Positions 1-8,155 of a stretch of 8,155 nucleotides of DNA are shown here, in pieces; position 1 is the first letter of the stretch; each line of letters begins with the position of its first letter. Origin of the DNA: a virus (taxonomy: Duplodnaviria; Heunggongvirae; Uroviricota; Caudoviricetes); IMG/VR virus record IMGVR_UViG_2671180254_000007, one strand, 5' to 3'. Under the pieces are notes generated by a model. That model made no database searches and had not been told where the DNA came from. It saw only the letters and a list, made by a program, of their open reading frames with translations. A program made the translations under genes and the position numbers.

Positions 1-61
1 CATCAGATGGCTGCTTAAAAAAAGAACAAATGGTAGTGTCCGCTATTGCCAGTACACCTCA
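1..61. repeat. Left copy of a perfect 61-bp terminal inverted repeat (partner at 8094..8154)
   Basis: Seen in sequence: bases 1..61 equal the reverse complement of 8094..8154; identity ends at 62 versus 8093. Confidence 0.9.
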
Positions 62-188
62 GGGTATAAGGGGTTATGGCCACCGGACTACCAAACGGCT
101 GCCAGCCCTCTTTCAGTTTATGTGTCAGCTTTTCCGCAAGATCTGACGGCGGCGCCGCCCTGACAACATCATAGTGTTTAAATGCCAT
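15..188 (-). CDS. DUF1737-like small phage protein with a replaced C-terminus (start could also be 203)
   Basis: ORF-track protein from the internal Met (MAFKHYDVVRAAPPSDLAEKLTHKLKEGWQPFGSPVAI...) fits the DUF1737 pattern I recall (GWxPxG core); GGAAAG lies 5 nt upstream of the ATG at 188. The last 15 codons (LRCTGNSGHYHLFFF) are encoded by the inverted repeat, so the native C-terminus looks replaced. Confidence 0.5.
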   Translation of the reverse strand: MAFKHYDVVRAAPPSDLAEKLTHKLKEGWQPFGSPVAITPYTLRCTGNSGHYHLFFF

Positions 189-381
189 GGTTCTTTCCAC
201 CATCTGAAAAATAATTCTTTAAAATACCTGACATGTAATACAGAAAAAACACAAAACCATACCTTAAATAAAAACCTGATTATCAAGCAGATATGCATGG
301 ATAAACTACAAGACGAGATATAAACCACCCTGCATTTAAATAAACAATAAACAACATCAGAAAAATAATTCTGCTCTATGG

Positions 382-408
382 TTTACATTCAAAAATATCA
401 TTTATACT
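382..408 (+). promoter_or_regulatory. Putative sigma70-like promoter upstream of ORF 449..784
   Basis: TTTACA (382-387) and TATACT (403-408) with a 15-nt spacer in AT-rich DNA; spacer is short and AT-rich DNA gives many chance matches. Confidence 0.2.
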
Positions 409-448
409 TTTCAGAACATCACCAGCAAGGCATAAACAAGGAAACTAA

Positions 449-784
449 ATGAAGTGGATTGTGATTGATACAGTTATCCAGCCATCATGCGGAATATCTT
501 TTTCAGTCATATGGAGTAAAATAAAATTAATAATCTGGTATCAATCGGATGCTTTCTTACCTCCTGAAAGTATATTTACACTGACTCACACAGGCATCAT
601 GCTCAATAACAAAGTGCTACCTGTAACCATTTACAACGTAGTACCATTCAATAAAACATTCTGGAATTCAATCAAAAATAGCCAGGAATGCCCTACAAAT
701 ACAGATAACGTATTGAATGAATGCTTTAATAACCGTTGCACTCTGCAAATATGTCCTTATGGACTAAAACAACAAAGTCCATAA
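449..784 (+). CDS. Hypothetical protein, AT-rich cargo (moron-like) ORF, Cys- and aromatic-rich
   Basis: A 111-codon open frame in ~30% GC DNA where stops should be frequent; AGGA 6 nt upstream of the ATG; orientation opposite to the surrounding operon. No family recognised. Confidence 0.35.
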
Positions 785-812
785 GGAGTTTACTCACATC
801 TGACAAAATCAA

Positions 813-1071
813 NNNNNNNNNNNNNNNNNNNNNNNNNNNNNNNNNNNNNNNNNNNNNNNNNNNNNNNNNNNNNNNNNNNNNNNNNNNNNNNNNNNNNNNN
901 NNNNNNNNNNNNNNNNNNNNNNNNNNNNNNNNNNNNNNNNNNNNNNNNNNNNNNNNNNNNNNNNNNNNNNNNNNNNNNNNNNNNNNNNNNNNNNNNNNNN
1001 NNNNNNNNNNNNNNNNNNNNNNNNNNNNNNNNNNNNNNNNNNNNNNNNNNNNNNNNNNNNNNNNNNNNNNN
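813..1071. other. Run of 259 N (masked sequence or assembly gap)
   Basis: Seen in sequence; content unknowable. Confidence 1.
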
Positions 1072-1184
1072 CGCCACCAGCACACCGTCAGCCAGCACTG
1101 ACATTATCCGGCTGCTGCAATGCCATTCACAAAAACAGTAAGCAATCACTTTTTACCGTAACAGGTGATAATCCAGATATGTAT

Positions 1185-1538
1185 CTACCCCAGATGAGTA
1201 ATCCGAAGTTCATCCATACCACAGGTCCTGGCTATTCTGTTGTACTCCTGAACAAGAGCAAATAATTCTGAATTAGCAACCATGAACTCATCGCAAACCC
1301 TCTGTATAGCATCACTATTCAGAATAATAACGTCTCTTCCCGAAAGACGATCAGGAGTACAGAACAAAACTGTCAAACGGCTGAAGGCCTTTGCTCGTGC
1401 TGCATTGACTATATCAATACGCTGCCTAAGGATGAAACACCCCGACGCCTCATCAATATTCACTCTACCCACACCATATGAATGATAAATATTTAATGCT
1501 GAAAAAACCATTAGACCGTATAACAAACACTCAATCAA
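1185..1538 (-). CDS. Hypothetical protein (TTG start in track; first ATG at 1511)
   Basis: 117-aa ORF with ordinary composition in an AT-rich region between the two N blocks; no convincing RBS, no recognised family. Confidence 0.25.
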   Translation of the reverse strand: MIECLLYGLMVFSALNIYHSYGVGRVNIDEASGCFILRQRIDIVNAARAKAFSRLTVLFCTPDRLSGRDVIILNSDAIQRVCDEFMVANSELFALVQEYNRIARTCGMDELRITHLG

Positions 1539-1600
1539 TACTTAACAGAACTTTTATTTTTGACAAACATAAAATATTTTCAACAATATCCTGAGCCAGG

Positions 1601-1850
1601 NNNNNNNNNNNNNNNNNNNNNNNNNNNNNNNNNNNNNNNNNNNNNNNNNNNNNNNNNNNNNNNNNNNNNNNNNNNNNNNNNNNNNNNNNNNNNNNNNNNN
1701 NNNNNNNNNNNNNNNNNNNNNNNNNNNNNNNNNNNNNNNNNNNNNNNNNNNNNNNNNNNNNNNNNNNNNNNNNNNNNNNNNNNNNNNNNNNNNNNNNNNN
1801 NNNNNNNNNNNNNNNNNNNNNNNNNNNNNNNNNNNNNNNNNNNNNNNNNN
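1601..1850. other. Run of 250 N (masked sequence or assembly gap)
   Basis: Seen in sequence. Confidence 1.
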
Positions 1851-1910
1851 ATATAGCACCCTGACTGATACTGTAGTACCTAAGGTTCCAGAAACTGTGA
1901 TGTATCCGGC

Positions 1911-1936
1911 ACAGAAAAGCCCCTCCGGAGAGGGCT
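1911..1936 (-). terminator. Putative intrinsic terminator (minus strand)
   Basis: GC-rich hairpin agcccctc-cgga-gagggct at 1918..1936, followed on the minus strand by TTTTCTGT. Confidence 0.35.
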
Positions 1937-2132
1937 GGAGAGTGGCGCTATGTGCCATTGCATGATGCCGGGTGCCTCCCGGTGAATTCAGTACCAGCAC
2001 CTGAATCCGCGATTATCCCATATACCTACTCGCTGATTGCCCCTCCGCACAGGGGGATTCACCATGCCAGTTTCTTTTAACAAACTCCCCGCAAAACAGA
2101 CAACTGTCAACCGTCTGAATTGTGAGACATTT

Positions 2133-2158
2133 AAAAAAAAGGCCCGCAAAAGCGAGCC
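2133..2158 (-). terminator. Putative intrinsic terminator just downstream of the tRNA cluster (minus strand)
   Basis: Minus strand reads ggctcgc-tttt-gcgggcc followed by eight T (plus-strand A8 at 2133..2140). Confidence 0.5.
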
Positions 2159-2172
2159 AGGGAAAATAAGTG

Positions 2173-2249
2173 TGGCGCGTTGTACTGGATTCGAACCAGT
2201 GACCGATTGCTTAGAAGGCAATTGCTCTGTCCGGCTGAGCTAACAACGC
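2173..2249 (-). tRNA. tRNA-Arg (anticodon UCU)
   Basis: Manual fold of the reverse complement: acceptor gcgttgt/acaacgc, D-stem gctc/gagc, anticodon loop cuUCUaa, T-arm cactg-gttcgaatc-cagtg, discriminator G, encoded CCA. Resembles E. coli argU architecture. Confidence 0.85.
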
Positions 2250-2262
2250 ATGATGCAGATAA

Positions 2263-2339
2263 TGGACCGCCATCGGGGACTTGAACCCCGCGCAGCCAGC
2301 TTCGAAGGCTGGCGCTCTTTCCTGATGAGCTAATGGCGG
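2263..2339 (-). tRNA. tRNA-Arg (anticodon UCG)
   Basis: Manual fold: acceptor ccgccat/atggcgg, anticodon stem ccagc/gctgg with loop cuUCGaa, T-arm cgggg-ttcaagt-ccccg, encoded CCA. The C1:G72 pair is unusual, so the 5' end may be off by a base. Confidence 0.75.
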
Positions 2340-2346
2340 TATGTGA

Positions 2347-2422
2347 TGGTGGCCCTTGCTGGATTTGAACCAGCGACCTGGCGATTATGAGTCGCTCGCT
2401 CTCACCACTGAGCTAAAGGGCC
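2347..2422 (-). tRNA. tRNA-Ile2 (anticodon CAU, lysidine type); Met cannot be excluded from sequence alone
   Basis: Manual fold: acceptor ggccctt/aagggcc, anticodon loop cuCAUaa, T-loop ttcaaat, encoded CCA; strongly resembles E. coli ileX as I recall it. Together with the two Arg tRNAs this matches the ileZ-argN-argO arrangement of Stx-type lambdoid phages. Confidence 0.85.
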
Positions 2423-2462
2423 GGGAGCCGCATAATAACGACGCGTAATTAATTCTTCAATA

Positions 2463-3521
2463 TCATCCGTTCTGGCTGACTAAATCCTGTACTTCCCGAA
2501 CCGTCTGCTCAAAACGTTCAGTCTCCAGCTCAACGCCAATTGCACGACGCCCGAGCGCCAGTGCCGCTTTCACTGTCGAACCCAACCCCATGAAAAAATC
2601 TGCAATCAGGTCACCCGGACGACTGCTAGCGCTGATTATCTGCTGCAGCATTTCTGCCGGTTTTTCGCACGGATGTTTCCCGGGATAGAACTGCACCGGT
2701 TTATGCGTCCACACATCGGTATACGGCACCTGCACCGTCACGCCAAAATACCGCCGCAGATGTTTATATTCACTCAGCAGCTCCGCATACTGCCGGTTCA
2801 GTGAGGTATACGTATCCACCAGCTGGTGGTGGAGCTTTTCCAGTTCACCACGCCGATGCTTCTCTTCTGCCACCCGGGCAAACAGCGCCTGTAATTTCAG
2901 ATAATCGCTTTCATTCGGCAACTGCCACTGACCGGCACTGAACCAGTGCGACACCATGTTTTTCTTTCCTGTGGCATCTGCAATCTGTTTTGCCGTTATC
3001 CCCAGGGCAGCTCGCGCATCACGAAAGTAAGAAATCAGCGGGGCCATCACATGCTGTTTCAGTGCACTGCCCTTCGCCGCATACCCGGCATCTTTCGGAC
3101 GATACGGCCCCTGATAATGTTCCGCGAACAGAATGCGCTCTGTGGCGGGGAAATACGCCCGCAGGCTTTCCTTGTTGCATCCGTTCCAGCGTCCGGACGG
3201 CTTCGCCCAGATAATATGGTTCAGCACACTGAAGCGTTCACGCATCATGATTTCGATATCAGATGCCAGGCGATGACCACAGAACAGGTAAAGACTTCCG
3301 GCAGGTTTCAGCACCCGCCAGAACTGCGCCAGACACTGGTCCAGCCACTTCAGGTAATCATCGTCGCCCTTCCACTGGTTATCCCAGCCCTCAGGCTTCA
3401 CTTTAAAGTACGGCGGGTCCGTGACTATCAGGTCAACAGAATTTTCGGGTAACGACCGGATAAATTCCAGGCAGTCGGCGTTGATTAACTCACAACTGGA
3501 TATTTTTACAGTATTAAGCAT
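2463..3521 (-). CDS. Orphan DNA methyltransferase, beta-class (N6-adenine likely; PF01555-like)
   Basis: 352-aa ORF with DPPY catalytic motif near the N-terminus (VTDPPYF) and the AdoMet motif FxGxG near the C-terminus (DFFMGLGST); this motif order is beta-class. A central ~90-aa insert could be the target-recognition domain. No restriction endonuclease ORF is adjacent. Confidence 0.9.
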   Translation of the reverse strand: MLNTVKISSCELINADCLEFIRSLPENSVDLIVTDPPYFKVKPEGWDNQWKGDDDYLKWLDQCLAQFWRVLKPAGSLYLFCGHRLASDIEIMMRERFSVLNHIIWAKPSGRWNGCNKESLRAYFPATERILFAEHYQGPYRPKDAGYAAKGSALKQHVMAPLISYFRDARAALGITAKQIADATGKKNMVSHWFSAGQWQLPNESDYLKLQALFARVAEEKHRRGELEKLHHQLVDTYTSLNRQYAELLSEYKHLRRYFGVTVQVPYTDVWTHKPVQFYPGKHPCEKPAEMLQQIISASSRPGDLIADFFMGLGSTVKAALALGRRAIGVELETERFEQTVREVQDLVSQNG

Positions 3522-3553
3522 GGATCATTAAGCCTGTCTCTGATAGGCTCATT

Positions 3554-3572
3554 CTGCTTTTGCGCAAAGCAG
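3554..3572. promoter_or_regulatory. Near-perfect palindrome ctgcttttgcgcaaagcag upstream of the methyltransferase start
   Basis: Seen in sequence, ~35-50 bp upstream of the ATG at 3521; operator-like dyad symmetry. Confidence 0.3.
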
Positions 3573-3613
3573 TGGGCCTGAGGTTTGCTTGTGAACCCAA
3601 CGCATGAGCAGAT

Positions 3614-3644
3614 GGCTGGTGGGTGCCCCTAACACCCACCAGCC
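3614..3644. promoter_or_regulatory. Perfect 12-bp inverted repeat (ggctggtgggtg / cacccaccagcc) with 7-nt spacer
   Basis: Seen in sequence; no flanking T-tract on either strand, so not a typical intrinsic terminator; candidate protein-binding site or RNA structure in the methyltransferase leader. Confidence 0.35.
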
Positions 3645-3655
3645 GCCCATTTACC

Positions 3656-3685
3656 ACAAATAAAAAAGCCTTCACTGCGGAAGGC
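3656..3685 (-). terminator. Intrinsic terminator overlapping the stop codon of ORF 3672..3869
   Basis: Minus strand: gccttc-cgcagt-gaaggc followed by TTTTTTATTT. Confidence 0.6.
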
Positions 3686-3869
3686 GTCTGTAACAACCGA
3701 ACTGATAGTCTGCCAGACCCGCCATAACCAGCTGGGTCAGTATTAACTGGCAGCGTTCGCGTGAAAGGTAAGTATTCTGCGCTATCTCCCCGACTGTCGC
3801 CGGTTCGGTAACGCTTAATTCATTAAACACCACTCTGGCGGTTTCTGTCATATCCTGCTGTTTTAGCAT
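3672..3869 (-). CDS. Small (65 aa) hypothetical protein, possible helix-turn-helix DNA-binding protein
   Basis: ATG at 3869 with AGGA 6 nt upstream; the segment TVGEIAQNTYLSRERCQLILTQL looks like an HTH recognition region (inference only). Confidence 0.5.
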   Translation of the reverse strand: MLKQQDMTETARVVFNELSVTEPATVGEIAQNTYLSRERCQLILTQLVMAGLADYQFGCYRRLPQ

Positions 3870-3987
3870 GTCTTTTCCTTTTCCGGTTAACGTGACACAC
3901 CAATAACTCTTGTCGAAAAAGCCAGCAAGCTGAAAGACAGGTATTCACCGCCACCAGCGCGTTTACTGTACTGACGCGATTTCAGTC

Positions 3988-4011
3988 ATAAAAAACCCGC
4001 TCGGCGGCGGG
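3988..4011 (-). terminator. tR'-like intrinsic terminator downstream of Q
   Basis: Minus strand: cccgc-cgccga-gcggg followed by TTTTTTAT. Confidence 0.55.
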
Positions 4012-4060
4012 TTGTAGAAACTCTTCTAACGTCAGGCATAAAACGCCCATCGTTATGACG

Positions 4061-4088
4061 AATTTACCACAGATTCCGGAAAAATCAA
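4061..4088 (-). promoter_or_regulatory. pR'-like late promoter (candidate Q engagement/qut region)
   Basis: Minus strand TTGATT (4088..4083), 16-nt spacer, TAAATT (4066..4061), immediately downstream of the Q stop and ~55 nt upstream of the tR'-like terminator; position matches lambda pR'/tR' logic. Confidence 0.4.
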
Positions 4089-4093
4089 CCTTG

Positions 4094-4915
4094 TTACCTA
4101 GTTACCTTTTTTAACTGCCGCTCAGCCCATGCTTCTTCAATATCAAACCGGGTCACCAGCGCATCATAAAATTTCTTAACTGTTTTTTCCCATGACGCGC
4201 GTGTTATCTGGTTTGTCACCTCGCATATAGCATTAAATGCCTCCGTTGATGGTAGTCTTTCATAGCCACGACCACCACAACGCTGGCAGTCTCTGATAAC
4301 AGGCATACCACGTTTTACCGACTCTTCACGATGAATGGCGACACCACGCCCACGGCAATCCTTACAGGCGGTGGAAACCTCACCCTTTCCGCCACACTCC
4401 GGACAGGCAACTTTTACCACCTCCCTGACTTTTTTCCATTCTTCCCAGTAAGACGGATACACACCTTTCGTACACTTTGCCCATACCGGCGGCTTACCAT
4501 CCGGATACTGGATCTTGTTTGTAAAAACCTCGCTTTCAATAAATTTTTTTCCGTGACAGCAGGGGCACTGTTTTTTGCTCGCCGCGCTACGGGCATAATC
4601 TTCAAACGCATACGAAGCCATAATACGCATCACTGCCGGTTTTATTTCTGCCGGGAGTTTTCTTAACGCCGCCACGCGATCACACCGACTGAGTGCATAT
4701 TCTGTCAGCAATTCTGTTGCCCGCTCTCTGTCATTCATACTAATGCCCATTTTCCCAAGGAACGCAGAAACCCCCATCTCAGCCCGATTCTGTGTCATGC
4801 CCTGCGCGGCCATCACATCAGTGATACTCAGCGCATCTTTCGACGTTGAGGCCGATGCATCAGTCAGGCCGGGGGATTTTGGGGAGTAGTATTTCGGTAA
4901 ATCTTCCAGTTTCAT
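4094..4915 (-). CDS. Late-gene antitermination protein Q (lambda Q family, with insertion)
   Basis: 273-aa protein aligns by eye with lambda Q: N-terminal M(K/R)LE..PK(Y/F)(Y/H)SPKSP, TDVMAA.GM, DY.RSAA, CxxC zinc motifs, C-terminal TVK..YDALV...VTR. Start ATG overlaps the rusA stop (ATGA). Confidence 0.9.
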   Translation of the reverse strand: MKLEDLPKYYSPKSPGLTDASASTSKDALSITDVMAAQGMTQNRAEMGVSAFLGKMGISMNDRERATELLTEYALSRCDRVAALRKLPAEIKPAVMRIMASYAFEDYARSAASKKQCPCCHGKKFIESEVFTNKIQYPDGKPPVWAKCTKGVYPSYWEEWKKVREVVKVACPECGGKGEVSTACKDCRGRGVAIHREESVKRGMPVIRDCQRCGGRGYERLPSTEAFNAICEVTNQITRASWEKTVKKFYDALVTRFDIEEAWAERQLKKVTR

Positions 4916-5292
4916 TTTTTGACCTGCCCTTCAAGCATTATGGGATAAATCTTCACCCCCAGACGTCCACCAGATACTGGCTGAGCACGAACGATATTGA
5001 TTTCATCAAACTGCTCATCGTCCATTAGCAACCCCGCATGCGTCAGCGCATCCAGCGGCGCTTTCAGAATATTGTCCAGGTCACGGCGGCGCTTATCCGG
5101 TGGTTCTGCAATAATTTTTATTGCCAACCTTCCGGACAGGCTTAATTTCAGCCGCTGCTGGCGAACAATAAGCGCCACTGCCCGGCGATAACGCTCCCCG
5201 GCTTTTGATACAAAATATGTGCTGCCACGACGACGCCAGTAAGTGTTCACCGTCGGCGGGTAAGGTAAAACAAATTCTATGCGCTCGGTCAT
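4912..5292 (-). CDS. rusA: Holliday-junction resolvase RusA
   Basis: 126-aa protein matches E. coli RusA as I recall it (LPxPPxxN, PDxRRRDLDN, DALTxAG, GGRL). Confidence 0.92.
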   Translation of the reverse strand: MTERIEFVLPYPPTVNTYWRRRGSTYFVSKAGERYRRAVALIVRQQRLKLSLSGRLAIKIIAEPPDKRRRDLDNILKAPLDALTHAGLLMDDEQFDEINIVRAQPVSGGRLGVKIYPIMLEGQVKK

Positions 5293-6351
5293 TTATGCTT
5301 TCCACTTCAGAACACCCGAATTTCTCGCGTGCATTAAAAAACGAATCAGCAACAACAGCTGACTGCCGTGTTTCTCTTCAAAATCTTTTACTCCGGCATG
5401 TAGTTCGTTACGGCATTTACGGCATAACGGAATAACAAACAAATCATCAGCCTTTGTTCCCATCCCTCCCAGTCCATGACCAATGATGTGATGCGGATCA
5501 TCTGCCTGATTGCCACACGTCATGCATTTCTGCGTTTTTACCCAGCGCGTGTATACAGGCATCTCTTCCCGTTGTGATTTCTGGCGCTGGAGATACTGAG
5601 CCGGTGACTCCGGATCAACGGCAATGCTGACCACCGTCTTTTCCTGTGGTGGGTTCTGTTGCTGGTGGACGTGAGGCAGTAACGCAATATTTTTTGTGCG
5701 CTGCTTCAGTATGCTGGTGGCTGTCTGCTCTCCCGGTATGATGTCGCTTTCACTGTACACAGAGCGAATTTTTTCCGCACGCAACCCCAGCGAACGACGT
5801 AATACCGCTTCCGGTAGCGCGTCCGCCACCTGATTGCGGACCGCCCACCAGGATAATTCAGCCAGAGATAATTCACGCTCCTGCGTACCGCTTATTGCGT
5901 GACCGATGACGTCAATCATCCATGCTGACAGGTTTTGATGAGCAAGTTGCTCGAGTGATTCGGATGTCTGGTCACGCAGCTGGTTGTCGCAGTGCCAGCA
6001 CAACACCATTGCGCCGGTACCATAACGGTGAATGACGGTTTCGCTGTGATGATAATCGCCGTGTGGCCACTGGCAGGATTTAATATGGCGCAACAGCCAG
6101 TCAGACAATGCACCAGCACCACCAGCAGCACGAATCACCCGTGCGTTACTGAAAAACGGCAGCAATGTTTTGTCTTCCACCAGCGGCTGGCGAGCGGCAG
6201 GAACGACCCCGGACGGCAGATTACGCATGCTTTTTGGTTCCGGCTCCACCAGTATTCTGCCGTTATGGAATGCTGACATTGATTCACGGCCTGGCTTAAC
6301 GATAACCAGACCGAGTTCCGGTACCAGAACAGGTCGAAGTAATACCCGCAC
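5293..6351 (-). CDS. DUF968-family prophage protein (YdfU-like) with C-terminal Cys/His HNH-like motif
   Basis: 352-aa ORF; GTG start at 6351 preceded by GGAGG with a 4-nt spacer (alternative ATG at 6279); C-terminal CMTCG...HHIIGH...CRKCRNELH; lies directly upstream of rusA and Q as in Qin-type prophages. Confidence 0.8.
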   Translation of the reverse strand: MRVLLRPVLVPELGLVIVKPGRESMSAFHNGRILVEPEPKSMRNLPSGVVPAARQPLVEDKTLLPFFSNARVIRAAGGAGALSDWLLRHIKSCQWPHGDYHHSETVIHRYGTGAMVLCWHCDNQLRDQTSESLEQLAHQNLSAWMIDVIGHAISGTQERELSLAELSWWAVRNQVADALPEAVLRRSLGLRAEKIRSVYSESDIIPGEQTATSILKQRTKNIALLPHVHQQQNPPQEKTVVSIAVDPESPAQYLQRQKSQREEMPVYTRWVKTQKCMTCGNQADDPHHIIGHGLGGMGTKADDLFVIPLCRKCRNELHAGVKDFEEKHGSQLLLLIRFLMHARNSGVLKWKA

Positions 6352-6426
6352 ATTACCTCCAGATCCGTTGCTGGAATGTGCGGGACGGACGCGTTGGCCG
6401 TTCGGAGTAAGGGAGCCTGACGGAGA

Positions 6427-6711
6427 TTATCCAGTGACGGTAGTCGAGGCTAAGGGCTTTTTTAACCTCGCATCCGCGCCTGCGGTAACACTGAATGAGC
6501 CATTCGGCCTGTTCTTCAGTGCATGGGGGATGCTGGTACCAATCAGATTTAAATGCGTGAGAGCGCCGCCCGTGCCTGCTGGCAAAGACGGCTGAATTAT
6601 CAGAATTGTGTAGTCTGGAAGGCAGTGGCTGACAATAGCGCCATTCTCAACGCGCACAGTATAGAGGCCATCTTCACTAAAAATTTCACGTAATTCTTCG
6701 ATTTTCATCAA
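6427..6711 (-). CDS. Small nin-region protein (possible Rem-like), with a possible -1 frame continuation to 6353
   Basis: 94-aa ORF with AAGGA ~9 nt upstream of the ATG; position matches rem in E. coli K-12 Qin (hokD-rem-ydfU). The -1 frame stays open ~98 codons and ends at the DUF968 start. Confidence 0.5.
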   Translation of the reverse strand: MMKIEELREIFSEDGLYTVRVENGAIVSHCLPDYTILIIQPSLPAGTGGALTHLNLIGTSIPHALKNRPNGSFSVTAGADARLKKPLASTTVTG

Positions 6712-6827
6712 CAGAATCCTTCCAGATAAATAGCACTCCCCTGTTCGGGGTCCATCCCTCTTCTCCCTGCGCGCTACTTAAGTATTTTTGATTCTATTCC
6801 GGCACCATCTAAAACTTCAAACGCGTT

Positions 6828-6858
6828 GAAAATAAAAACAAAAACCCGCCGAAGCGGG
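6828..6858 (-). terminator. Intrinsic terminator downstream of hok (minus strand)
   Basis: Minus strand: cccgcttcggcggg followed by TTTTTGTTTTTATTTT. Confidence 0.6.
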
Positions 6859-6928
6859 TTAAGTGTGGGTGCATTGAGGATGCCTGACCCATCAGAGGTG
6901 GCGAGGGATTTCTCCCCCGCCTGGTCTC

Positions 6929-7084
6929 TTACTCCTCAGGTTCGTAAGCTGTGAAGACAGCGACCTCCGTCTGGCCGGTTCGAATTCGTACCTCGCAGAG
7001 GTCTTTCCTCGTTACCAGTGCCGTCACTATGACGGTTAAACAGATGACGATCAGGGCGATTAACATCGCCTTTTGCTGCTTCAT
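6929..7084 (-). CDS. hokD: Hok/Gef-family type I toxin (HokD/RelF-like), 51 aa
   Basis: Internal Met of ORF 6929..7141 gives MKQQKAMLIALIVICLTVIVTALVTRKDLCEVRIRTGQTEVAVFTAYEPEE, matching E. coli HokD as I recall it; GGAG 9 nt upstream of this ATG. The track ORF adds 19 in-frame upstream codons of uncertain meaning. Confidence 0.9.
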   Translation of the reverse strand: MKQQKAMLIALIVICLTVIVTALVTRKDLCEVRIRTGQTEVAVFTAYEPEE

Positions 7085-7375
7085 AGCCTGCTTCTCCTTG
7101 CCTTTCGGCACGTAAGAGGCTAACCTAGATTTGCCGTTCATAGATTGAGCCTCAGATTAATGTTAAGCGTCTTGCCGGACGCGTAATGTTAACTGGGGCT
7201 TTTCTCTATCTGCCTTTTGGTGTTCATGCCTGAGACAGATAGCCTCAAGCACCCGCTGCAATTCTACTTAACTCTCCTTTTCCCGCAAACCGTTTTTATC
7301 CCCAGCGGCAAATCGAATACACCACCAGCGCCACCGCCATCGCAATTCCTACCGTTGTTAATGCTTCAGGCCAGG

Positions 7376-7720
7376 TCATCGTAAAATATCCTCCACGCTT
7401 ATCAGTCCGTTCCGCTCCAGATAACTCATCGCCTTATCCGGTAATTTGCAGTCTGGCTTCGCTTTCCTCAGTTGCCAGGTTAACTGCTTTACCAGCATGG
7501 TTAACTCATCGACCAGACGCTGATATCCCACTGGTTTGTATTCATGCAATTTACCGGCTGGCTCTGCTGCCAGCGATACCAGTGCGATTTCCAGAACAGC
7601 AATATCCATCTTATATGTGCGGATGATGTCATGGTCGATTGTGCCCGGTATGCACAGTCTCTGTGCTTCAATAGTCTCCTCTGCGTGAGCTATTAACTGC
7701 TCTCTGGTAAAAGTCGTCAT
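7376..7720 (-). CDS. Hypothetical protein (114 aa), paralogous to the upstream 55-aa ORF
   Basis: ATG overlaps the stop of the upstream ORF (ATGA). N-terminus MTTFTREQL resembles MTTITKERI of the neighbour, and both share an IAL.SL.AEP segment. No family recognised. Confidence 0.6.
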
Positions 7721-7884
7721 GCCGTAGCCCCTTCTTGATATTTTTCAAACCAGAACACAACCGGCTCTGCTTCCAGCGATGCCAGCGCAATCCGTGCCAG
7801 TTCCATTTGTTCACCACGGGTAAGCCCGTTTTCAAGCGGGTTTTTAATGAACAATTCAATACGTTCTTTGGTAATAGTGGTCAT
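7717..7884 (-). CDS. Hypothetical protein (55 aa), absent from the ORF track (<60 aa)
   Basis: Hand translation: [55 protein letters not shown]; GGAG 6 nt upstream of the ATG at 7884; stop overlaps the next start. Confidence 0.55.
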
Positions 7885-7894
7885 GTGTTACTCC

Positions 7895-8125
7895 TTAACC
7901 CGCAGTGCTTTCAACTGATGAGGGGAACAAAATCTTTTCATCAAACCCTGCATTCATATCATGAACAGCAACACACCAATCCATCGACGAACGATTATCA
8001 AGAGCCTCCATGATTTCATCCATGCGGCGTAGGTCATACAGGTAAATGCTTTTATCGCCAATGGTGTAAAAGCCAATTTTTTTCGGTGATGGATGAGGTG
8101 TACTGGCAATAGCGGACACTACCAT
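7895..8125 (-). CDS. Hypothetical protein, probably the C-terminal part of a gene that starts beyond the window
   Basis: 76-aa ORF with no RBS before its ATG; the frame remains open upstream to the window edge (inside the inverted repeat); its stop immediately precedes the RBS of the 55-aa ORF. Confidence 0.4.
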   Translation of the reverse strand: MVVSAIASTPHPSPKKIGFYTIGDKSIYLYDLRRMDEIMEALDNRSSMDWCVAVHDMNAGFDEKILFPSSVESTAG

Positions 8126-8154
8126 TTGTTCTTTTTTTAAGCAGCCATCTGATG
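8094..8154. repeat. Right copy of the perfect 61-bp terminal inverted repeat
   Basis: Reverse complement of 1..61. Confidence 0.9.
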
Positions 8155-8155
8155 A

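What the first reader, a model, noticed from the sequence alone, without database searches (positions are those of the whole stretch)
1..8154. Perfect 61-bp inverted repeats bound the whole window; the left copy truncates a DUF1737-like gene
Bases 1..61 are the exact reverse complement of 8094..8154. At the right end the repeat is the 5' part of an open reading frame that continues out of the window; at the left end the same sequence in opposite orientation supplies the last 15 codons and stop of the DUF1737-like ORF, which looks like a junction rather than a native C-terminus. This could be a real inversion or recombination breakpoint between prophage copies, or a contig-end assembly artifact.
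Basis: partly seen in the sequence, partly recalled or inferred. Interest (0 to 1): 0.5.

Follow-up and report, generated by a model that had tools for sequence, protein, structure and literature searches.

The report
IS600 ends at scaffold ends
The two 61-base inverted repeats are the same end of two copies of IS600, a common Shigella/E. coli jumping gene, left at the tips of a short-read assembly that broke at this multi-copy element, so the finding is real but ordinary.

Summary
Bases 1-61 are the exact reverse complement of 8094-8154. The repeat is not prophage sequence. It is the right-hand end of insertion sequence IS600 (IS3 family, 1264 bp): the last 5 codons and stop of the transposase gene plus the terminal inverted repeat.

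Uninterrupted E. coli homologues stop matching at window 59 on the left and 8093 on the right. On the left, IS600 cuts a DUF1737/NanS-p-type gene after about codon 43. On the right, it replaces the first 22 codons of an 87-aa prophage gene.

Both junctions occur base-for-base in many Shigella sonnei assemblies, including finished genomes such as Ss046, so they are real insertions. The length of 61 is set by the assembler: other drafts keep 37-402 nt of IS600 at these junctions, and S. sonnei carries about 40-50 IS600 copies.

The window is also a mosaic. Bases 62-1600 match one S. sonnei prophage remnant and 1851-8093 match another, in both cases at 100% identity, and they are joined only across runs of N. 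In the 14 finished-genome loci displayed the two remnants lie in separate loci, so the join is probably a scaffolding artefact.

Verdict: already known, low interest.

The parts
1..61 (+). Right-hand end of an IS600 copy that lies to the left of the window. Bases 1-18 on the + strand are the last 5 codons and stop of the transposase (HQMAA*). The element's terminus (...CACCTCA) is at base 61.
   Evidence: 100% identical to annotated IS600 in E. coli. Matches L004 9972-10032 and L014 10143-10203.
8094..8155 (-). Right-hand end of a second IS600 copy that lies to the right of the window. The terminus (TGAGGTG...) is at 8094. The transposase stop is at 8137-8139 on the minus strand.
   Evidence: The uninterrupted E. 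coli homologue diverges exactly after 8093.
15..203 (-). 62-aa fusion ORF. Bases 62-203 encode the N-terminal DUF1737 domain of a NanS-p-type (DUF1737-SASA) gene. Bases 15-61 are read-through into IS600.
   Evidence: Pfam DUF1737, E=1.5e-15, residues 8-50. 39/43 identity to residues 1-43 of the 617-aa protein, then no similarity. The exact protein is found in S. sonnei assemblies including CP000038.
7895..8125 (-). 76-aa fusion ORF. The first 11 codons come from the IS600 end and junction. Residues 12-76 equal residues 23-87 of an intact 87-aa prophage protein.
   Evidence: 65/65 identity to L002 3696-3959. The exact protein is indexed in 795 blocks of the assembly collection, 83 of them holding contigs >1 Mb.
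62..1600 (.). Segment B: the late-region remnant of one S. sonnei lambdoid prophage. It holds DUF1737', iraM (449-784, +) and the start of the DUF3927 gene (from 1149, -). It is interrupted by the N run 813-1071.
   Evidence: 100% identity to L014-L023 over 1-812 and 1072-1600.
813..1071 (.). Run of 259 N. The real sequence here is 306 bp in every relative examined, so this looks like an estimated scaffold gap.
   Evidence: 29 of 29 sampled E. coli genomes that carry both flanks span 906 bp for 859 query bases.
1601..1850 (.). Run of 250 N that forms the only link between segment B and segment A.
   Evidence: In 33 of 33 assembled sequences, the sequence after window 1600 runs into tRNA-Arg and never reaches the sequence at 1851.
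1851..8093 (.). Segment A: a second S. sonnei lambdoid prophage remnant. All features are on the minus strand. They are the 76-aa ORF, hok/sok, DUF968, RusA, antiterminator Q, a 65-aa ORF, an N6/N4 DNA methylase, three tRNAs and an STnc100-like element.
   Evidence: 100% identity over 6305 bp to L004, L006, L008, L009 and L011. Pfam, tRNAs, Rfam.
4170..4512 (.). 343-nt stretch in the Q gene that is identical between the two prophage remnants. Other draft assemblies switch loci here.
   Evidence: L025, L033 and L034 change from A-type to B-type here.
2181..2249 (.). 69-nt stretch in tRNA-Arg(TCT) that is identical between the two remnants. Another draft contig switches loci here.
   Evidence: L027.

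Best explanation
Each arm of the inverted repeat is the right-hand end (IRR end, 3' of the transposase gene) of a copy of IS600. IS600 is a 1264-bp IS3-family element present in roughly 40-50 copies in Shigella sonnei. One copy is inserted in the DUF1737-coding 5' part of a NanS-p-type gene. The other is inserted in an 87-aa prophage gene. The two copies face each other, so their identical right ends read as an inverted repeat. A short-read assembler cannot cross a 1.26-kb multi-copy element, so the sequence stops a k-mer's length (61-62 nt) inside IS600 at both ends. That stop fixes the repeat length. Shown: the identity of the arms, the two insertion junctions, their presence in finished genomes, and the variable retained length in other assemblies. 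Inferred: that the window is a whole scaffold from a de Bruijn assembler with k near 63, that its N runs are scaffold gaps, and that the two IS600-bounded halves (62-1600 and 1851-8093) are not adjacent in the real chromosome.
For: Identity of the arms:
- The 62-mer 8094-8155 is 100% identical to features annotated 'IS3-like element IS600 family transposase' (2,232 records with >=99% identity, up to 43 places per genome).
- A full copy in L004 is 1264 bp with TG...CA ends and a 3-bp TCC duplication relative to the empty site in L005.
- The left and right ends of IS600 share only 28 of 62 nt, so both arms are the right end.

The junctions:
- Uninterrupted homologues in 1,379 E. coli genomes begin matching at window 59. 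On the right they stop at 8093.
- Similarity at protein level stops at the junctions.
- Both fusion ORFs exist exactly in S. sonnei assemblies, including chromosomes >1 Mb. CP000038 is cited as S. sonnei Ss046.

The assembly effect:
- Whole draft contigs carrying the same junctions end 51, 107, 125, 146, 148, 353 or 402 nt inside IS600. One IMG scaffold piece ends at exactly 61 nt.
- S. sonnei 53G has 52 IS600 copies, and the population median is 39 (PMC7373316, S1 Table).

The mosaic:
- One search shows the two halves match different loci.
- N run 1 is 259 nt, against 306 bp of real sequence everywhere else.
- No assembled sequence supports the join at 1600/1851.
Against: The source record could not be found in genome contigs, viral contigs or metagenome contigs. 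So neither the assembler, nor the k value, nor the nature of the N runs is documented. The second N run is exactly 250 nt and starts at base 1601, which could also mean a deliberate mask and not a gap. Contig ends next to the N runs do not carry the k-1 overhang seen at the IS600 ends. A real strain-specific recombinant joining the two remnants cannot be excluded without reads.
Confidence: 0.9

Rival explanations
1. The arms are IS600 ends, and the 8-kb interior is also a true contiguous piece of the source chromosome. On this reading it is a strain-specific hybrid of the two prophage remnants, bracketed by two inverted IS600 copies.
For: Segment A alone really is bracketed by two inward-facing IS600 right ends, 6365 bp apart, in most finished-genome loci examined (L004, L006-L009, L011-L013). 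The two remnants share long identical stretches at which homologous recombination could occur. IS600 copies at these very junctions have exchanged flanks between strains. One N-free draft contig (L025, 6236 bp) carries both junctions.
Against: The join in the window lies at 1600/1851, which is not a region of homology, and it would leave two STnc100-like copies. 33 of 33 assembled sequences continue from 1600 into tRNA-Arg. The 14 finished-genome loci displayed keep the two junctions more than 10 kb apart. Three draft assemblies join the remnants at three different shared repeats, which is what repeat-induced misassembly looks like. No indexed block has a 5-10 kb contig as the longest one carrying the left-junction ORF.
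Confidence: 0.25
2. The repeat marks an inversion or recombination breakpoint between two prophage copies. On this reading the 61-mer is prophage sequence present in both orientations.
For: The 61-mer is fused to prophage genes at both ends.
Against: The 61-mer is IS600 sequence, found in thousands of non-prophage contexts including plasmids. Intact prophage homologues lack it.
Confidence: 0.02
3. The terminal inverted repeat is a fold-back or hairpin artefact of library preparation or assembly, with no counterpart in the genome.
For: The repeat is perfect and sits exactly at the ends of the sequence.
Against: Both junctions are reproduced in hundreds of independent assemblies and in finished chromosomes. 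The two arms abut different unique sequences.
Confidence: 0.01
4. The window is a composite transposon, or a new 8-kb element, whose own terminal inverted repeats are the 61-mers.
For: The layout, with inverted IS copies around a cargo of Q, methylase, tRNAs and iraM, resembles a composite transposon.
Against: There is no target duplication around the unit. The flanks outside the two IS600 copies do not match. The IS600 copy on the far side of segment A has its own 3-bp duplication, so it inserted on its own. Context changes between strains keep the flank on the left-end side of the IS and swap the flank on the right-end side, as expected for recombination inside the IS and not for transposition of the unit.
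Confidence: 0.01

Closest known systems
IS600 (IS3 family), first described from Shigella sonnei (origin recalled from my own knowledge; family and name from RefSeq annotation)
   Same: The 62 terminal bases are 100% identical. Related loci show the full 1264-bp element with TG...CA ends, an imperfect terminal IR, a 3-bp target duplication, and a two-part transposase made by programmed frameshift with HTH and rve domains.
   Different: Nothing differs. The window holds only 61-62 nt of each copy.
IS-driven pseudogenisation and rearrangement in Shigella genomes (Hawkey et al. 2020, PMC7373316)
   Same: IS600 is one of five expanded IS in Shigella. The paper reports 52 copies in S. sonnei 53G, that IS interrupt genes and mediate rearrangements, and that short reads handle them poorly. 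The window shows two such interrupted genes, and related genomes show flank exchange between the same two copies.
   Different: This is a single local instance and adds no new principle.
Composite transposons with inverted flanking IS copies (Tn10 and Tn5 type; my own knowledge)
   Same: Two inverted IS copies bracket a cargo segment. In finished genomes this is true for segment A.
   Different: There is no unit-level target duplication and no evidence that the unit moves. IS3-family elements transpose through a left-end/right-end circle junction (my own knowledge), which two inward-facing right ends do not provide for the unit.
NanS-p-type phage esterases (DUF1737 + SASA + DUF6645), encoded downstream of the Q-tRNA region in lambdoid and Stx-type prophages
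   Same: The truncated ORF matches residues 1-43 of a 617-aa protein of this architecture at 91% identity and sits in the same place relative to Q and the tRNAs.
   Different: Only the first 43 residues remain. Even in IS-free E. coli relatives this particular copy, the one next to iraM, is already annotated as a truncated pseudogene.

Membership tests
IS600 / IS3 family insertion sequence | Nucleotide identity to reference IS600 | tested here: met
   8094-8155 is 100% identical to features annotated as IS600-family transposase or element in E. coli. Identity continues over the full element in L004 and L014.
IS600 / IS3 family insertion sequence | Ends 5'-TG...CA-3' with imperfect terminal inverted repeats | tested here: met
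   The right end is TGAGGTGTACTGG... and the left end is TGAGGTAGCCTGA.... They share 28 of 62 positions, mostly in the first ~28 nt.
IS600 / IS3 family insertion sequence | About 1.2-1.5 kb, with orfA/orfB joined by a programmed -1 frameshift, and HTH plus DDE (rve) domains | tested here: met
   Tested in related loci only. Length is 1264 bp. RefSeq note 'programmed frameshift'. Pfam HTH_Tnp_1, HTH_21, rve, rve_3. Inside the window only the last 5 codons are present.
IS600 / IS3 family insertion sequence | 3-bp target-site duplication | tested here: inconclusive
   Met for the neighbouring copy (TCC, L004 compared with the empty site in L005). Not seen for the two copies that end the window: their outer flanks are unrelated sequences, which fits later recombination between IS copies.
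Composite transposon | Target duplication flanking the whole IS-cargo-IS unit | tested here: not met
   The outer flanks of the bracketing copies do not repeat each other.
Composite transposon | The same unit found at unrelated sites | tested here: not met
   Only the flank on the right-end side is swapped between strains, while the flank on the left-end side stays. This indicates recombination within IS600.
DUF1737-SASA (NanS-p-type) esterase | N-terminal DUF1737 domain | tested here: met
   PF08410, E=1.5e-15, profile positions 1-46 of 53.
DUF1737-SASA (NanS-p-type) esterase | SASA carbohydrate-esterase domain | tested here: not met
   The ORF ends 14 codons after the IS600 junction. Full-length relatives have 617 aa with SASA and DUF6645.
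Assembly fold-back artefact | Junctions absent from independent assemblies | tested here: not met
   Both junction ORFs are present in many independent assemblies and in finished chromosomes.

The most novel reading that the evidence does not exclude
The 8-kb unit would be a real, strain-specific hybrid prophage remnant bracketed by inverted IS600 copies. It would behave as a mobile or invertible cassette carrying the late-gene antiterminator Q, a DNA methylase, three tRNAs and the RpoS-stabilising anti-adapter gene iraM.
Probability: 0.03. Interest if true: 0.3.

Novelty: already known. Interest (0 to 1): 0.08.

Why it matters
It matters mainly as quality control. A perfect terminal inverted repeat on a short contig from an IS-rich genome should first be checked against known insertion sequences. 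N runs inside such a sequence can join loci that are not neighbours. Biologically it records two known-type IS600 gene disruptions in Shigella sonnei prophage remnants. It also gives a small example of IS600 copies exchanging flanks between strains. Neither point changes current understanding.

Tried and rejected
1. Finding the source record. I used a gapped pattern across the second N run and the left-junction 45-mer in genome contigs, both junctions in viral contigs, the left junction in metagenome contigs, and the gapped pattern in viral contigs. No contig of 8155 bp turned up, so the assembler and organism label remain inferred.

2. I first read the ATG at 8152-8154 as the start of the IS600 orfA, which would make the arm the left end. 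Gene positions in L004 and L024 and the translation ...HQMAA* show it is the right end.

3. I tested whether the order 'window 1600, ~250 nt, window 1851' is a natural prophage arrangement. The best E. coli hits (H106, H107) carry the two pieces in the opposite order. Rejected.

4. I tested whether N run 1 could be a length-preserving mask. It is 47 nt too short compared with every relative. Rejected as unlikely. For N run 2 the question stays open.

5. I considered stx or another toxin hidden under the N runs, because the layout (Q, tRNAs, then cargo) is Stx-phage-like. The homologous sequence under run 1 is an STnc100-like repeat plus the 3' part of the small DUF3927 gene, and what the 250 nt under run 2 contain is unknown. 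Rejected for run 1 and not assessed for run 2.

6. Protein database, structure prediction and fold searches were not used. The DNA-level evidence was decisive.
Full report
**1. The observation.** The window is 8155 bases. The repeat finder reports one outstanding inverted repeat: arms 1-61 and 8094-8154, 61 nt, 100% complementary. The next best pair is 34 nt at 71%. An exact 61-mer cannot be chance. Base 8155 has no partner only because the sequence ends there.

**2. What the arms are.**
- Searching 8094-8155 against 5,426 finished E. coli genomes gives 100% matches in thousands of records. There are up to 43 places per genome, on chromosomes and plasmids, under features annotated 'IS3-like element IS600 family transposase'.
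- In one annotated copy the 62-mer begins at the element's terminus, and the transposase CDS on the opposite strand ends 43 nt in.
- I delimited a complete copy by comparing an occupied site (L004) with an empty site (L005). It is 1264 bp, begins TGAGGTG and ends CACCTCA, and is flanked by a 3-bp duplication, TCC.
- The two ends of the element share only 28 of their first 62 bases. A 61-nt perfect match therefore means both arms are the same end.
- That end is the right end, downstream of the transposase gene, whose last codons (HQMAA, stop) lie at 1-18 (+) and 8137-8154 (-).
- So two IS600 copies face each other, with their transposase genes reading towards the window. I had first guessed the opposite end from an ATG at 8152. 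Gene positions corrected that.

**3. The junctions are real insertions.**
- On the left, 1,379 E. coli genomes match window 59-811 at up to 99.6%, and none continues into 1-58. The empty site reads ...CTGCATCAGGGTATAAGG, against ...ACACCTCAGGGTATAAGG in the window. The three shared bases TCA make the exact insertion point ambiguous by 3 nt.
- On the right, matches stop at 8093. The empty site continues CAGCGATCAAG where the window has TGAGGTG.
- At protein level, the 62-aa ORF (15-203, -) has a DUF1737 domain. It matches residues 1-43 of a 617-aa DUF1737-SASA-DUF6645 protein at 39/43 identity. The similarity then stops, and the tail RCTGNSGHYHLFFF is IS600 read in another frame.
- The 76-aa ORF (7895-8125, -) is identical over residues 12-76 to residues 23-87 of an intact 87-aa prophage protein. 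Its first 11 residues come from the IS end.
- Both fusion proteins exist with exactly these sequences in public assemblies. The 76-aa one is in 795 index blocks, 83 of them with contigs >1 Mb. The 62-aa one is in 76 blocks, 13 of them >1 Mb, including CP000038. Papers cite CP000038 as Shigella sonnei Ss046.
- No finished E. coli genome in the collection carries either junction.
- Together with 100% identity over 6305 + 812 + 529 bases, this places the window in S. sonnei.

**4. Why the repeat is 61 nt long.**
- In finished genomes the identity runs on for the whole 1264-bp element.
- In whole draft contigs carrying the same junctions, the retained IS600 portion is 402, 146, 125, 146, 353 and 148 nt (L018-L023), 107 nt at both ends of L025, and 51 nt in L033. 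One IMG scaffold piece ends at exactly 61 nt and is followed by an N (L035).
- The length therefore depends on the assembly and not on the biology.
- S. sonnei 53G carries 52 IS600 copies, and the population median is 39 (PMC7373316, S1 Table). The same paper stresses that IS are hard to resolve from short reads and that they disrupt genes and drive rearrangements.
- Retention of 61-62 nt suggests a de Bruijn assembler with k near 63. This is inference only, since I could not find the source record.

**5. The window is a mosaic.**
- One search shows that 1-812 and 1072-1600 are 100% identical to one S. sonnei locus. I call it locus B: IS21 element, RusA of 124 aa, Q of 284 aa, tRNAs, DUF3927, iraM, truncated DUF1737, IS600.
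- Bases 1851-8155 are 100% identical to another locus, which I call locus A: IS600, 76-aa ORF, hok, DUF968, RusA of 126 aa, Q of 273 aa, methylase, tRNAs, 122 bp, then IS600 or directly a full NanS-p-type gene.
- In the 14 finished-genome loci displayed, each with 10 kb of flank on both sides, the two junctions never share a locus.
- The two parts meet only across the 250-N run.
- The sequence following window 1600 is the same in 33 of 33 assembled sequences and leads within ~50 nt into tRNA-Arg. None reaches the window-1851 sequence downstream.
- The best E. coli candidates for a natural adjacency carry the two pieces in the opposite order.
- The first N run is 259 nt, where all S. sonnei loci and 29 of 29 sampled E. 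coli genomes have 306 bp. That fits an estimated scaffold gap better than a mask of real sequence.
- Two other draft loci are cut about 20 nt beyond window 812, inside a GC-rich hairpin. One of them ends in a palindromic mis-read of it.
- The two remnants share exact stretches of 343 nt in Q (4170-4512) and 69 nt in tRNA-Arg (2181-2249). Other draft assemblies switch from one locus to the other at exactly these stretches: L025, L033 and L034 in Q, and L027 in the tRNA.
- Three assemblies thus give three different joins, each at a repeat or a gap. I conclude, at about 65-70% confidence, that the B/A join in the window is a scaffolding artefact. A real recombinant remains possible.

**6. What is real at the level of genome structure.**
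- In most finished-genome loci examined (L004, L006-L009, L011-L013), segment A is bracketed by two inward-facing IS600 right ends 6365 bp apart. A kilobase-scale inverted repeat around most of this window's content therefore does exist.
- The copy on the far side has its own TCC duplication, so it inserted independently.
- The copies that end the window show no duplication. Their outer flanks differ between strains in an informative way. The same outer flank (AATCAAGACTGGCTAAGCTGATTAG) is joined through IS600 to the DUF1737 junction in L014 and L017, and to the 76-aa junction in L012 and L032.
- That is the signature of homologous recombination between these two IS600 copies, most simply an inversion.

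**7. Comparison, novelty and verdict.**
- The arms pass every testable criterion for IS600. The one exception is the target duplication at these two copies, which later recombination explains.
- The unit fails the tests for a composite transposon. The fold-back artefact reading is contradicted by independent assemblies.
- IS600 insertions, the pseudogenes they create, IS-mediated rearrangements in Shigella, and contig breaks at IS copies are all well documented (PMC7373316).
- The finding is confirmed as an observation, explained, and ordinary. Novelty is 'already known' and interest is about 0.08.

Noticed in passing
window 813-1071 and 1601-1850: There are two runs of N. The first is 47 nt shorter than the 306 bp found in all relatives. 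The second is exactly 250 nt, starts at base 1601, and is the only link between two different S. sonnei loci.
   Followed up: yes
window 1907-2096 (-): Rfam hit to the sRNA family STnc100 (123.6 bits against a gathering score of 47). A 96%-identical second copy lies in the other prophage remnant, where the window has its first N run. A more diverged third copy lies upstream of the NanS-p-type gene in L005.
   Followed up: partly
window 6929-7254 (-): A hok/sok type I toxin-antitoxin pair: Hok/Gef Pfam hit on the 70-aa ORF and Rfam sok at 7079-7254. The homologous gene is annotated hokD in E. coli relatives.
   Followed up: no
window 2173-2422 (-): Three tRNA genes lie downstream of Q and the methylase: Arg-TCT, Arg-TCG, and a CAT-anticodon tRNA. 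ARAGORN calls the last one Met, while RefSeq annotates it as tRNA-Ile at the homologous place. This is the Stx-phage-like layout, but no stx gene follows.
   Followed up: partly
window 449-784 (+): An iraM gene (anti-adapter protein, PmrD-like) sits as a cargo gene on the opposite strand, between the STnc100-like repeat and the truncated DUF1737 gene. The Pfam copy used here gave no hit. The name comes from RefSeq annotation and from the precomputed PF11183 hit.
   Followed up: no
window 6620/6621: Some S. sonnei genomes (L005, L010, L031) carry an extra 250 bp here, overlapping the 3' part of a Rem-family (PF27490) gene called only in those loci. The window and most of the other loci lack it.
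   Followed up: no
window 4170-4512 and 2181-2249: These are exact 343-nt and 69-nt repeats shared with the second prophage remnant. Several public draft contigs switch loci at exactly these points, so chimeric contigs of this region are probably common in S. sonnei drafts.
   Followed up: yes
L014/L017 11406 versus L012 8769 and L032 8618: The same outer flank is attached through IS600 to different inner flanks in different finished genomes. This indicates recombination, probably an inversion, between two IS600 copies.
   Followed up: partly
L001 2945-3130: Even without IS600, the iraM-adjacent DUF1737 gene in E. coli is annotated as a pseudogene lacking its C-terminus. The gene that IS600 hit may therefore already have been a remnant.
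   Followed up: no
L028 797-819: This draft locus ends in a perfect palindrome, CCCCTCCGGAGGGG, where the true sequence is CCCCTCCGGAGAGGGG. It looks like a hairpin turn-around artefact at the same place where the window's first N run begins.
   Followed up: no
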